This document shows positions 8,556 through 47,006 of a DNA stretch of 64,000 nt, in pieces. The notes beneath the pieces were generated by a model. It searched no databases. It saw only the letters and a program-made list of their open reading frames with translations, and was not told the DNA's origin. The number at the start of each line of letters is the position of its first letter. The first letter of the stretch is position 1. Origin of the DNA: Carcharhinus amblyrhynchos (lineage: Eukaryota); contig OZ336879.1 in assembly GCA_965287045.1 (NCBI GenBank), forward strand, positions 62,124,001-62,188,000, given 5' to 3'. The position numbers and the translations under genes are program-made.

Positions 8556-9489
8556 ATAAGAACATAAGAACATAAGAACATAAGAAATAGGAGCAGGAGT
8601 AGGCCATCTAGCCCTTCGAGCCTGCCCCGCCATTCAATAAGATCATGGCTGATCTGTTGTGGCTCAGTTCCACTTTCCCGCCCTCTCCCCATAACCCTTA
8701 ATCCCCTCTCTTATCAAGAACCCATCAACCCGCGTCTTAAAAATATTTAGTGAGGCAGCCTCCACCACTTCAACGGGCAGAGAATTCCAGAGATTCACCA
8801 CCCTTTGAGTGAAGAAGGTCCTCCTCAACTCCGTTCTAAACCGCCCCCCTTTATCTTGAGGCTGTGCCCCCTAGTCCTACTGTCTTTTTTGAGCGGGAAG
8901 AGTCTCTCCACCTCTATCCTATCCATCCCATTCATCATCTTATACGTCTCAATGAGATCTCCCCTCATTCTTCTAAACTCTAACGAGTACAAGCCTAGTT
9001 TATTCAGCCTCTCCTCATAGCTCAATCCCCTCAACTCCGGTATCAGCCTAGTAAACCTCCTCTGCACTCCCTCCAGGGCCAAAATATCCTTGCACAGGTG
9101 CGGCGCCCAAAACTGCACACAGTACTCCAGCTGCGGCCTCACCAATGCCCTATACAGCCGCAGCAAGACCTCCCTACTTTTATATTCAATCCCCCTCGCT
9201 ATGAAGGCCAGCATCCCATTCGCCTTCCTGACCACCTGCTGCACCTGCAAGCTGGGTTTTTGCGACTCATGCACAAGGACCCCGAGGTCCCTCTGCACCG
9301 TCGCCTGCTGCAGTTTTTCGCCACGTAAGTAATAGTCCTTCCTACCATTCTTCCTACCAAAGTGGACCACCTCACACTTGCCAACATTAAATTCCATTTG
9401 CCATTTCCTGGCCCATTCGCCCAGCCTATCTAGATCCTTCTGCAGACTCTCCACACCCTCCGCACAATTTGCCTTTCCCCCAATCTTCG
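8556..9489 (-). mobile_element. Young 5'-truncated CR1 LINE, copy A
   Basis: Uninterrupted ORF2 C-terminus ([66 protein letters not shown]). (TTCTTATG)n tail and retained CpGs. Confidence 0.95.
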
Positions 9490-19898: not shown

Positions 19899-20802
19899 GA
19901 ACATAAGAACATAAGAAGTAGGAGCAGGAGTAGGCCATCTAGCCCTTCGAGCCTACCCCGCCATTCAATAAGATCATGGCTGATCTGTCGTGGCTCAGTT
20001 CCACATTCCCGCCCTCTCCCCATAACCCTTAATCCCCTCTCTTATCAAAAACCCATCAACCCGCGTCTTAAAAGTATTTAGCGAGGTAGCCTCCACCACT
20101 TCAACGGGCAGAGAATTCCAGAGATTCACCACCCTTTGAGTGAAGAAGTTCCTCCTCAACTCCGTTCTAAACCACCCCCCCTTTATCTTGAGGCTGTGCC
20201 CCCTAGTCCTACTATCCTTTCTGAGCGGGAAGAGTCTCTCCACCTCTATCCTATCCATCCCATTCATCATCTTATACGTCTCAATGAGATCTCCCCTCAT
20301 TCTTCTAAACTCTAACGAGTACAAGCCTAATTTATTCAGCCTCTCCTCGTAGCTCAGCCCCCTCAACTCTGGCATCAGCCTAGTAAACCTCCTCTGCACT
20401 CCCTCCAAGGCCAAAATATCCTTGCGTAAGTACGGCGCCCAAAACTACACACAGTACTCCAGCTGCGGCCTCACCAATGCCCTATACAGCCGCAGCAAGA
20501 CCTCCCTACTTTTATATTCAATCCCCCTCGCTATGAAGACTAGCATCCCATTAGCCTTCCTGACCACCTGCTGCACCTGCAGGCTGGGTTTTTGCGACTC
20601 ATGCACAAGGACTCCGAGGTCCCTCTGCACCGTCGCCTGCTGCAGTTTTTCACCACGTAAGTAATAATCCTTCCTACCATTATTCCTACCAAAGTGGACC
20701 ACCTTGCACTTGCCAACATTAAATTCCATTTGCCAGTTCCTGGCCCATTCGCCCAGCCTATCTAGATCCTTCTGCAGACTCTCCACACCCTCTGCACAAT
20801 TT
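19899..20802 (-). mobile_element. Young 5'-truncated CR1 LINE, copy B
   Basis: Near-identical to 8556-9489 (4 mismatches in a 120-bp sample). Same ORF2 C-terminus with one premature stop, and a (TTCTTATG)n tail. Confidence 0.95.
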
Positions 20803-24320: not shown

Positions 24321-25480
24321 AGTGTGACTCTCTACCCATATGCCAGTGCAGGGAATCATAGAGACTTTTAGCTTCTAGTTGTTCTCTCTTTCTCTCCTTG
24401 ACCTTGGTGGACTAACCTGTCCGTGATAACCAGTGATATTTTAGGAAAGGTTATAACCCAATATCACAATGTTTCCTCTGTACCCTTCCCATCTCAATGT
24501 CCATCATCACGGTAATATGAATCACATGGGCCTTGTATTCAGATAGGGATGCTAATTAGCTATCCTTGAGATCCAATTCTCTTTCACCTCAAAGTAAATG
24601 GATATTTTGAAGCACAACTGTTTACTACTCAACATTCTTAACACTTTTCTGGGACTTTGGAAACTCACAGTCTATCCATTGTTCATACAGAGGCCACTGC
24701 CGTTGTCTCCAGGTGTACATTTTACTCTATTTAAAGACACCACAACAAAACATAATAATCTTATAAACTATTTAATTGTAACAGAGAAGGAGTTCTATCG
24801 TAAAATGACAAGGTCGGCAGCAGAAAGAAATTAGGAAGGAAAATCAGAGAGTTAAGGCTGAAGCAGCTCAACATTATACCAGCAATAATGAGGCAAAGGG
24901 AGAGGGAATGCTAAATGGCCAGATTCAGAGAGAATATTAAGTTATAGGAAGTATAGAGATTCATCGAAGCAAGAACTTGGAAGCATTTGATTGACAATAA
25001 TGACAATTGCAAAATAACTGCATTGGAAAATAGTGATCCAACGTAGCTGTTAAAATAGAAATTAAATTCACAGTGCATGCCCACCTTCTCCATAGGTATG
25101 GGAATCTTGTTCAAGGAGACTGCAAATATCAGCAGTGAGCTGCTGTGAGACCCTGAGCTTCCTAAAGCACTAGAGCTCACACGTGTCAGGAGAACTGATT
25201 CTCCAGCTACAAATCGTGTGTTGGATGTTTTGCCTCCTTCCAGGTGGATTTCTGTGGTCCATTCTCTCTATCCCGTGGAGGAGAATGCAGCTAAGGAGAA
25301 TGCTGCTGGTGTTCCTTCTGCTGCTCCTAGGACAGCGAGTAGTGATCTTGCTTCTCCCCTTGTCCCTCGTTAGAAGTGCAAGGCAGAGCTGCAAAAGCTG
25401 ATCCCACTGCCATGATGAAGTCTGTAAGAAGTCTCACAACATCAGGCTAAAGTCTAACAGGTTTATTTGGTAGCACAAGC

Positions 25481-25515
25481 CACTAGCTTTTGGAGCGCTG
25501 CTCCTTCATCAGGTG
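25481..25515 (-). ncRNA. Minimal type I hammerhead ribozyme motif, opposite-strand copy
   Basis: Exact reverse complement of 25598-25632. Confidence 0.65.
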
Positions 25516-25597
25516 AATGAGATTTCAGTTCACAAACAGGGCATATAAACTTGAGTTTGTGTCTTTACATGCCCTGTTTGTGAACTGAAATCCCACT

Positions 25598-25632
25598 CAC
25601 CTGATGAAGGAGCAGCGCTCCAAAAGCTAGTG
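25598..25632 (+). ncRNA. Minimal type I hammerhead ribozyme motif (G12-to-A variant, probably inactive)
   Basis: CAC-CTGATGA-A-GGAGC-AGC-GCTCC-AAAA-GC-TA-GTG: stem I CAC/GTG, CUGAUGA box, stem II, GAAA box changed to AAAA at a CpG, palindromic AGCT stem III. Confidence 0.65.
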
Positions 25633-26235
25633 GCTTGCGCTACCAAATAAACTTGTTGGACTTTAACCTGGTCTTGTGAGACTTCTTGCTGTGTTTACCC
25701 CAGTCCAACTACGGCATCTCTGCATCATGATGAAGACTGGCAGCAGGTAAGTACAGCTGAAGGTGACTGAAGGGTAGGGCAGGCAAAGTGCCTTCCAAGA
25801 AGTTGGCAATCACCTATCAAACAGTGAAAACACTCTTTCAGAGAAACGGCTTGGGCAGGGGCATCTCACCTGGCCATGACTAGAGCTCTTCAGTTTCACT
25901 GATGAAAGGTTTCTCAGCTTGTCAATTTCACTGAACAATCCTGTTGTGCAGGATTGATGGTTGAAGTAGTACTGAGTGAAGTTTCTCATTATTCTAATTG
26001 CTTACTTGGCAACTGTAGGGGTGTTATCTGCTCACCTTCAATTCTCCCTGGTGAAATCCTGAAGTGTGTTGATGTTGGGATCCTGATCCAATACTGCTTT
26101 TAGGGGAGTAAAATCACTGCATATACCCAAACCTGCATTCCTCTGCTTGAGAAAATCCCACTCTTTGAGTCAGCCTTCATAGCAATTACAAAGTGTGTAC
26201 TGGAAATTGTCAGGAAATGAGAGTCTAAGATGAAT

Positions 26236-45584: not shown

Positions 45585-45812
45585 AGCAGCAAGCAAGCAA
45601 AGCAAAAGCAAAAGCAAAAGCAGCAGCAATCCCACACACAACAACAAAAACTCTCAACAACAACAACAAAAAGCAGTGCAAAAAAAACCAAAAAGAGGAA
45701 CTTTAAAAAAACAAAAAAAAACTCACTTTTTTTGTTATTTGTTATTTGTCTCTGGCAATCAAAACAACAGCAACTACAACAAAAAAAAGACAAGAGAGAA
45801 AGAGAGAGAGGG
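45585..45812 (+). repeat. 5' leader simple repeats (AGCAAA)n, (CAA)n, A-runs and (GA)n
   Basis: Directly visible upstream of the ATG. Confidence 0.8.
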
Positions 45813-45821
45813 GGAAAAGCC

Positions 45822-46085
45822 ATGGCGACAGCGACGTCCAATCCCTACATGGCCAGCAATAGTATCCTGTCCTCCAACTCTATCGTGCACAGTGATTCAG
45901 GCGGCATGCAGCAGGCGACCACGTACCGAGATCCCTCGAAAATGGTGCAGAGCGACTTCATGCAGGGGGCCATCGCCAGCAACGGCCACATGCTCAGCCA
46001 TGCACACCAGTGGGTGACGGCGCTGCCGCACACCGATGCGGGCTCTCCCTGGTCCTCGGCCATGGCCGGCAGCCCCCTGGGTCAA

Positions 46086-46120
<35 letters not shown>

Positions 46121-47006
46121 GCAACAGGACGTCAAGCCGTCGGTGCAGGTGGTGGGCCGGGACGAGCTGCACACGGGCGCCGCTCCCCTGCACCATCACC
46201 GCCCGCCTCACCTGCCGCCCCACCAGCCGTCACACGGCGGCCACCCGGCCGCCTGGGGGGCCACCACCACGGCTCACCTGCCGTCCATGGGCTCGGCCGT
46301 GCAGCCGCTCATCTACTCGCAGCCCGGCTTCACGGTGAACGGCATGCTGAGCCAGGCGGGCGCGCAGAGCCTGCACCCGGGCTTGAGGGACACGCCGGAG
46401 CTGGTGGACCACGGGCAGCAGCACCACAGCCACGAGCACTCGGACGAGGACACGCCGACCTCGGACGACCTGGAGCAGTTCGCCAAGCAGTTCAAGCAGA
46501 GGAGGATCAAGCTGGGCTTCACCCAGGCCGACGTGGGCTTGGCGCTGGGCACCCTGTACGGCAACGTCTTCTCCCAGACCACCATCTGCCGCTTCGAGGC
46601 GTTGCAGCTGAGCTTCAAGAACATGTGCAAGCTCAAGCCGCTGCTGAACAAGTGGCTGGAGGAGGCCGACTCGTCAACCGGCAGCCCCACCAGCATCGAC
46701 AAGATCGCGGCGCAGGGCAGGAAGCGAAAGAAGCGCACCTCCATCGAGGTGAGCGTCAAAGGAGCGCTGGAGAGCCACTTCTTGAAATGTCCCAAGCCCT
46801 CGGCGCAGGAGATCGCTTCCCTGGCGGACAGCCTGCAGTTAGAGAAAGAAGTGGTCCGAGTTTGGTTCTGCAATCGGAGGCAGAAGGAGAAACGCATGAC
46901 GCCGCCGGGAGGGGTGCAGCAGACGGACGATGTGTACTCACAGGTCGGCAATGTAAACGCCGACACACCACCCTCTCACCACGGACTACAAACCGCCGTA
47001 CAGTGA
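45822..47006 (+). CDS. POU3F3: POU domain class 3 transcription factor 3 (Brn1), intronless, 394 aa
   Basis: Strong Kozak GCCATGG. POU-specific domain ([29 protein letters not shown]..) and homeodomain ([25 protein letters not shown]). Paralog-diagnostic segments [38 protein letters not shown] and C-terminal [22 protein letters not shown] match POU3F3 rather than POU3F1, POU3F2 or POU3F4. Confidence 0.96.
46083..46127 (+). repeat. Coding CAG/CAA repeat encoding Q15
   Basis: CAA(CAG)5 CAA(CAG)6 CAA CAG. Confidence 0.97.

What the first reader, a model, noticed from the sequence alone, without database searches (positions are those of the whole stretch)
25411..25738. 302-bp fold-back retroelement with a hammerhead ribozyme motif on each strand and a 13-bp TSD
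Seen: 126-bp arms (10 mismatches, 9 of them transitions), a 14-nt loop, a 36-nt one-sided extension, and flanking CATGATGAAG(T/A)CT duplication. Each arm carries an identical 35-nt CAC-CTGATGA-stem II-(G/A)AAA-GC-TA-GTG motif. Established: Penelope-like elements carry minimal type I hammerheads with palindromic stem III in their pseudo-LTRs, thought to cleave as dimers, and often form inverted pLTR structures. Inference: the TSD around a unit with no ORF suggests the palindrome moved as one non-autonomous unit, like a retrozyme or SINE, that could present a ribozyme from either transcription direction and folds into long dsRNA. This is the best candidate for an under-described system here. Both copies have AAAA for GAAA at a CpG, so this instance is probably catalytically dead. 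The shared change suggests inheritance from the source RNA or arm-to-arm conversion.
Basis: partly seen in the sequence, partly recalled or inferred. Interest (0 to 1): 0.7.

Follow-up and report, generated by a model that had tools for sequence, protein, structure and literature searches.

The report
Dead fold-back stub of Penelope retrotransposon
This 300-base mirror-image sequence is a one-off stub of a very abundant Penelope-type jumping gene, in a head-to-head layout already described for that class; it was likely made in a single insertion event, and its two ribozyme motifs are mutated and predicted to be folded shut, so it is ordinary.

Summary
The anatomy is as described: 126-bp arms, 14-nt loop, 36-nt extension, two minimal-hammerhead motifs with AAAA for GAAA, and a target duplication (14 bp; paralogues of the target lack the insert). 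The reading 'palindrome that moved as one unit' fails. The hairpin tip occurs once in the 2.9-Gb genome, while a 34-mer of the family's 3' end occurs 7,537 times. Of 82 independent insertions picked by that 3' end, 50 are fold-backs, 92-2,658 bp long, with different tips, fixed outer ends, a 30-41-nt tail and 11-14-bp duplications. The same layout frames an intact 893-aa RT + GIY-YIG element with Neptune-type motifs. Inverted 5'-truncated copy, tail, TSD and opposite-strand minimal hammerheads are in print (PMC8557442, PMC3846280, PMC4209133). The family consensus has GAAA; AAAA is common CpG decay. In either direction the antisense arm is transcribed first and is predicted to lock the ribozyme. 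Residual interest is family-level: both arms come from one source copy, often neither lies within the other, and their lengths correlate, which fits priming from both cut DNA ends. The scan reported this pattern before on other DNA, in this genome too.

The parts
25411..25424 (.). Left copy of the 14-bp target-site duplication; its last G is also the first base of the inverted arm
   Evidence: empty-site paralogues
25424..25549 (-). Inverted, 5'-truncated copy of the Penelope terminal repeat without the tail (family positions -111 to +14)
25481..25515 (-). Minimal type I hammerhead motif, G12 replaced by A
   Evidence: consensus
25546..25551 (.). Head-to-head junction; the two copies share 2 or more letters (A-rich microhomology); unique in the genome
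25548..25729 (+). Sense, 5'-truncated copy of the terminal repeat (family positions -127 to +54), 92.7% identical to the 3' end of the long copy L061
25550..25563 (+). Apparent 14-nt loop: the part of the sense copy that reaches further 5' than the inverted copy
25598..25632 (+). Minimal type I hammerhead motif; G12 replaced by A at 25622; the site homologous to the cleavage site lies after 25629
   Evidence: descriptor in PMC4209133
25690..25725 (+). 36-nt Penelope 'tail', ending at the start codon of the element's ORF (40 nt if the shared CATG is counted)
25726..25739 (.). Right copy of the target-site duplication; first four letters shared with the element end
25120..25950 (.). Older dispersed repeat (63-70% to paralogues) into which the stub inserted; borders approximate

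Best explanation
It is a dead, doubly 5'-truncated insertion of an abundant endonuclease-bearing Penelope-like retrotransposon with Neptune-type motifs, and its fold-back shape was likely made once, at this site, probably when both DNA ends of a staggered cut primed reverse transcription on RNA of one source element. Shown: the two copies are head to head, the tip is unique, outer ends and TSD length are family constants, and the same layout exists from 92 bp to several kb. Inferred steps: (1) the GIY-YIG nuclease cuts with a 14-nt stagger; (2) one 3' end primes at the RNA position next to the ORF start codon, helped by a 4-nt match, the other about 36-40 nt upstream, which leaves the tail on one arm only; (3) both cDNAs stop after 180 and 126 nt and are joined at a short microhomology; (4) gap filling gives the TSD; (5) neutral decay follows (arms 8% apart, CpG loss in the ribozyme core). 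The hammerheads are passengers of the terminal repeat.
For: Tip 29-mer: 1 match in 2.92 Gb at up to 2 mismatches; ten sister copies at 9-12% divergence would all be missed with probability 0.0005-0.026. 3'-end 34-mer: 7,537 exact matches, control 0. 50 of 82 independent insertions are fold-backs, 92-2,658 bp, median 225. Tail 30-41 nt in 65 of 83 fold-backs; TSD in 50 of 83 against 1 of 150 mismatched-flank controls, 11-14 bp in 46 of 50. 12 of 3,081 pairs of two-piece fold-backs have breakpoints within 2 nt, and all 12 differ in junction sequence. [quoted passage not shown] Arms of one insertion share non-consensus letters at 5.7% of sites against 1.7% between insertions, and are 7.9% against 15.9% apart (29 unbiased fold-backs). 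In 17 of 47 two-piece fold-backs the tail-less arm reaches more than 10 nt further 5' than the tailed arm, so neither is a copy of the other; arm ends correlate, rho 0.73. In vitro, a Poseidon enzyme cuts and extends both strands and starts at two sites that bound the tail (PMC11167929).
Against: In this instance the inverted arm lies wholly within the sense arm, so self-priming on the first cDNA would also explain it; two-ended priming rests on family statistics and on an enzyme of another clade. 23 of 50 unbiased fold-backs show no TSD at my threshold, and 53 of 79 tips carry unassigned letters (1-49 nt), part of which may be alignment trimming. The sample is 90 of 7,537 places, all from the first 43 Mb of one contig and chosen for an intact tail. 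The intact element L162 is only 75% identical to the stub; the 93% relative L061 is broken, so the exact source was not found. Clade assignment rests on motifs, not on a tree.
Confidence: 0.88

Rival explanations
1. Same ordinary origin, but the second arm was made by self-priming: the first cDNA (or an antisense template) folded back and was copied, as proposed for rotifer Penelopes.
For: PMC3846280 argues for self-priming from palindromes at inverted junctions. Here the inverted arm is nested in the sense arm and the tip has a short microhomology. It explains directly why arms share rare letters.
Against: Simple fold-back of the tailed cDNA cannot give the 17 of 47 cases in which the tail-less arm is longer at its 5' end. 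53 of 79 tips have inserted letters rather than shared ones.
Confidence: 0.2
2. A non-autonomous palindromic unit (SINE- or retrozyme-like) that is transcribed whole and mobilised in trans.
For: TSD around an ORF-less unit. Many fold-backs of about 300 bp are returned when the whole unit is the query. pLTR sequences can act in cis to mobilise unrelated DNA (PMC3846280).
Against: Tip unique; no two of 79 two-piece fold-backs share a tip; lengths are continuous; the 300-bp class is selected by the query; no tandem same-strand repeats as in retrozymes (PMC7229834); only 17 of 47 fold-backs keep both arms as far as the ribozyme's front edge. Identical fold-backs were seen only inside larger duplicated blocks (L032/34/38/40; L045/46).
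Confidence: 0.03
3. The hairpin was kept or homogenised by the host (arm-to-arm conversion, dsRNA or small-RNA source near a POU-domain gene).
For: 41-bp perfect tract over the ribozyme; same-direction CpG decay in both arms 7 against 0 opposite in sets not chosen on that site (p = 0.01). Both junctions are present in contigs of two other samples.
Against: A perfect run of 41 or more arises by chance in 17% of placements; differences around shared decays are not depleted (12.0% against 11.4-12.6% in the other classes); shared singletons are as common with long spacers (9 of 1,944) as with short (26 of 4,653). The second CpG shows no such concordance in those sets (3 against 2). Arms differ at 8% of sites, the family average.
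Confidence: 0.07

Closest known systems
Insertion units of canonical EN+ Penelope-like elements: inverted 5'-truncated copy, one-sided 30-40-bp tail, TSD (Craig et al. 2021, PMC8557442, passages; Arkhipova et al. 2013, PMC3846280, passages)
   Same: Head-to-head inverted copy, 36-nt tail on one arm, TSD around the whole unit, tail reaching the ORF start, heavy 5' truncation.
   Different: Both copies are cut so short that no ORF remains; TSD 11-14 bp here against 8-10 bp in the rotifer examples read.
Minimal hammerheads of metazoan PLE pseudo-LTRs (Cervera and De la Pena 2014, PMC4209133, results and discussion read)
   Same: Short helix I, extra base after the CUGANGA box, G10.1-C11.1 pair, palindromic two-base helix III, high stem II variability; that paper reports dual motifs 100-700 bp apart on opposite strands and links them to truncated PLEs.
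   Different: Helix II is 5 bp here; both motifs of this copy have lost G12. No shark family appeared in the parts read.
Neptune clade of PLEs (as defined in PMC8557442)
   Same: C-terminal GIY-YIG, DKG motif, CX2-5CxxC finger before the nuclease, two cysteines between GIY and YIG, hammerhead present.
   Different: Nematis shares the finger; no tree was built and no named family (Repbase, Dfam) could be compared.
Poseidon of Anolis, PAc (Frangieh et al. 2024, PMC11167929, main text read)
   Same: Two fixed outer ends separated by the tail; products expected from cutting and extending both strands; ribozyme activity not needed for insertion in vitro.
   Different: Other clade; in PAc the ORF starts inside the hammerhead and the start sites lie about 111-118 nt into the ORF, here the tail ends at the start codon. 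Inverted products were not described in the text read.
Animal non-LTR retrozymes (Cervera and De la Pena 2020, PMC7229834, passages)
   Same: ORF-less, about 300 bp, low GC, type I hammerhead, TSD longer than 4 bp.
   Different: Retrozymes are same-strand tandem repeats with canonical hammerheads that yield circular RNA; this is an inverted pair with minimal, mutated motifs and no sister copies.

Membership tests
EN+ Penelope-like element insertion | Terminal repeat continuous with an ORF encoding PLE-type RT and C-terminal GIY-YIG nuclease | tested here: met
   Stub 92.7% to L061's 3' end and 75% to L162's repeats; RVT_1 E 5e-10; GIY-YIG look-alikes at 0.96, a family on 31-34% of cluster members; Pfam itself gave no GIY-YIG hit
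EN+ Penelope-like element insertion | Inverted 5'-truncated copy adjacent at the 5' end | tested here: met
   50 of 82 family insertions
EN+ Penelope-like element insertion | 30-40-bp tail on one end only | tested here: met
   36 nt here; 30-41 nt in 65 of 83
EN+ Penelope-like element insertion | Target-site duplication around the unit | tested here: met
   14 bp; empty site in 7 of 11 paralogues
Neptune clade | CX2-5CxxC finger between RT and nuclease, CCHH cysteines inside GIY-YIG, DKG | tested here: met
   L162 residues 755-763, 793-809, 298; definitions
Neptune clade | RT groups with Neptune rather than Nematis in a tree | not tested
   no reference sequences fetched
PLE minimal type I hammerhead | Core CUGANGA / GAAA / UH in the family, stems I-III as in the published descriptor | tested here: met
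   consensus; stem II keeps pairing across variants; 65 of 174 arms have the whole core
PLE minimal type I hammerhead | Intact catalytic core in this copy | tested here: not met
   AAAA in both arms
PLE minimal type I hammerhead | Match to Rfam hammerhead models | tested here: inconclusive
   no hit (8 loci); the control rang nowhere, and minimal motifs lack helix III
PLE minimal type I hammerhead | Self-cleavage as dimer | not testable with these tools
   bench assay
Non-autonomous unit (SINE-like) | Several copies with the same internal structure at unrelated sites | tested here: not met
Non-LTR retrozyme | Same-strand tandem repeats with canonical type I hammerheads | tested here: not met
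   inverted pair, one motif per strand
Non-LTR retrozyme | Abundant linear and circular RNA of unit length | not testable with these tools
   no raw RNA reads of this organism were offered

The most novel reading that the evidence does not exclude
The thousands of fold-backs of this family are a fossil record showing that a Neptune-type enzyme primes from both cut DNA ends, in a coupled way, on RNA of one source copy, and that sources whose hammerhead CpG had already decayed were still copied, so ribozyme cleavage is dispensable for insertion in the animal. The stub's twin AAAA would then be inherited from a ribozyme-dead template.
Probability: 0.3. Interest if true: 0.45.

Novelty: new member of a known kind. 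Interest (0 to 1): 0.15.

Why it matters
The locus itself matters little: it is one dead stub among thousands. It shows that short TSD-flanked hairpins with two hammerheads in such genomes should be annotated as truncated Penelope insertions, not as new mobile RNAs or microRNA precursors. How PLEs make inverted structures is called undefined in PMC8557442, and paired arms offer a large genomic data set on that question and on whether the ribozyme acts in vivo.

Tried and rejected
Rfam scans gave only sub-threshold microRNA hairpin matches, rejected as generic; RF00163 on the genome found nothing and its control was silent, so it is uninformative. PDB sequence search of the intact ORF: nothing below E 0.5. 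Expression: no RNA holder listed; two possible-RNA contig sets from other organisms cover the repeat but not the unique flanks, which says nothing about this locus. No contig spans the hairpin, so arm changes could not be compared between samples. AAAA as a subfamily allele: suggested by 7 of 13 arms, rejected as selection by the query once relatives were picked on upstream sequence only. The CpG concordance included the window and look-alikes chosen with it; removes them and the effect is weaker (CA/CA 3 observed, 1.8 expected, p 0.24; same direction 7 against 0). Conversion-tract and spacer tests were negative. The splice-donor-like letters after the right TSD lie in an old repeat and vary among paralogues; not pursued. 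Rows dropped: L136 (wrong side fetched), seven loci that repeat larger duplicated blocks, and L002, L009, L073 (script found no tailed arm). Three paper searches gave no description of this family or of a palindromic non-autonomous PLE; the library lacks most subscription journals, and no supplements were opened, where named families and alignments may lie.

Full report
Observation. The structure is present as described: arms of 126 bp with 10 mismatches (9 transitions), 14-nt loop, 36-nt extension, and flanking duplication. It folds at -219.8 kcal/mol, z = -23. The duplication is 14 bp with one mismatch. The flanks belong to an old dispersed repeat; 7 of 11 paralogues fetched (of 22 matches) align across the site with one copy of the duplicated letters and no insert. 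Contigs of two other samples cross both junctions, so the insertion is not private to this assembly.

The family. The window lies in a 2.92-Gb genome. Earlier scan notes call it shark-like; no call of mine names the organism. A 34-mer of the family's 3' end has 7,537 exact matches, the reversed control none. I examined the first 90 places listed, all on contig C1; after dropping one mis-fetched locus and seven repeats of larger duplicated blocks, 82 independent insertions remain. 50 of 82 are fold-backs, 92-2,658 bp long. Adding 33 fold-backs from the 39 places most like the window, the outer ends are nearly fixed: the tailed arm ends at family position +50 to +54, the other mostly at +12 to +22, giving a tail of 30-41 nt in 65 of 83. 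A TSD is found in 50 of 83 against 1 of 150 mismatched-flank controls, 11-14 bp in 46 of 50. The inner ends vary freely.

Did the palindrome move as a unit? The 29 letters across this tip match once in the genome at up to two mismatches. At the 9-12% divergence expected between sisters, ten sisters would all be missed with probability 0.0005-0.026; at 14.5% it is 0.13. Among 79 two-piece fold-backs, 12 of 3,081 pairs have breakpoints within 2 nt and all differ in sequence at the tip. Identical fold-backs occur only within larger duplicated blocks.

The parent. L061 is a 4.4-kb fold-back whose sense copy carries RT and nuclease remains and ends 92.7% identical to the stub. L162 is a young tandem element with an intact 893-aa ORF, an inverted copy bearing the tail and a TSD; its repeats are 75% identical to the stub and its hammerhead has GAAA. 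The ORF has RVT_1, DKG, YIDD, CX4CxxC and two cysteines between the GIY- and YIG-like motifs; the C-terminal part resembles clusters in which 31-34% of members carry Pfam GIY-YIG. By the definitions in PMC8557442 this is Neptune- or Nematis-type. L171 and L172 are young fold-backs of several kb. The tail ends at the ORF's start codon, so the CATG that opens the TSD is also the element's last four letters.

The ribozyme. The family consensus fits the published minimal hammerhead, and stem II keeps pairing across many variants. GAAA is found in 78 of 123 unbiased arms, AAAA in 33. That CpG is decayed in 55 of 110 arms, like the two tail CpGs (42 of 96, 46 of 97), so there is no sign of selection after insertion; CA exceeds TG there (36 against 19), which is unexplained. 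Among the 29 nearest relatives picked on upstream sequence the site is CG 11, TG 9, CA 8, other 1, so the subfamily source had GAAA. In the full hairpin the hammerhead fold costs 64-66 kcal/mol on either strand, against 4-6 in a lone arm. Because the copies are head to head, each direction transcribes the antisense arm first and holds one sense motif only, so a cis dimer cannot form. Rfam models gave no hammerhead hit, which is uninformative.

Mechanism. Arms of one insertion come from one source: shared non-consensus letters 5.7% against 1.7% between insertions, divergence 7.9% against 15.9% (29 unbiased fold-backs); 234 of 278 shared letters sit at 28 recurrently variable sites. In 17 of 47 unbiased two-piece fold-backs the tail-less arm reaches further 5', in 12 the tailed arm, 18 are within 10 nt; the ends correlate (rho 0.73). 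This fits priming from both DNA ends, as shown in vitro for a Poseidon enzyme that also inserts without ribozyme activity (PMC11167929). Self-priming (PMC3846280) is not excluded for this copy, whose inverted arm is nested in the sense arm. Both arms here reach beyond the ribozyme's front edge and predicted cut site, so both were copied from uncut RNA (inference). For the twin AAAA: parallel decay has about a 0.3 chance given the first; same-direction decay is in excess family-wide (7 against 0 in sets not chosen on that site, p 0.01; not at the second CpG, 3 against 2); no conversion tract or spacer effect. Inheritance from an aged source is slightly favoured over conversion, neither shown.

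What is known. PMC8557442 (passages) states that an inverted 5'-truncated copy and a 30-40-bp tail are typical. PMC3846280 (passages) shows such units with TSDs. PMC4209133 (abstract, results, discussion, part of methods) reports dual minimal hammerheads 100-700 bp apart on opposite strands. PMC11167929 (main text and part of methods) explains the tail. PMC7229834 (passages) defines retrozymes as tandem repeats. No supplements were read. Earlier scan notes reached the same verdict on other loci, several in this genome; they are unchecked and were used as leads only.

Verdict. Real, ordinary, dead: a new member of a known kind. Interest 0.15.

Noticed in passing
82 unbiased insertions, L031-L140: 5' breakpoints cluster at the ribozyme's front edge (24 of 92 within -85 to -75, 10 expected, p 4e-5) and weakly at the predicted cut (6 at -46/-45, 1.8 expected, p 0.01); BLAST ends, not hand-checked. 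The window's own arms are not in either cluster.
   Followed up: partly
L162 (G000:C23:3616500-3626400): Very young, intact tandem Penelope-like element; repeats 100% identical over 1.4-1.8 kb; tail on the inverted copy rather than the sense end. The family may be active.
   Followed up: partly
L171, L172: Young fold-backs of several kb with near-complete ORFs on both arms (L172 arms 99.1% identical over 2.3 kb).
   Followed up: no
L032, L034, L038, L040 and L031, L033, L037, L039: Penelope stubs carried inside larger 91-99% identical duplicated blocks on contig C1; the second group has a short-period GC-rich tandem array and a CR1-like RT frame nearby (CR1 label recalled).
   Followed up: no
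unbiased set: Only 1 of 32 insertions without an inverted arm shows a TSD, against 27 of 50 fold-backs; may mean that TSD formation goes with two-ended insertion, or that their 5' ends were mis-called.
   Followed up: no
family hammerhead CpG: CA exceeds TG (36 against 19) while tail CpGs do not.
   Followed up: partly
window 45732-47006 (+): Intronless 424-codon frame of a class III POU homeobox gene, POU3F3-like (label recalled, not tested), about 20 kb from the stub.
   Followed up: no
window 8568-9470 and 19899-20802: Two 96% identical LINE fragments with RT frames, CR1-like (label recalled).
   Followed up: no
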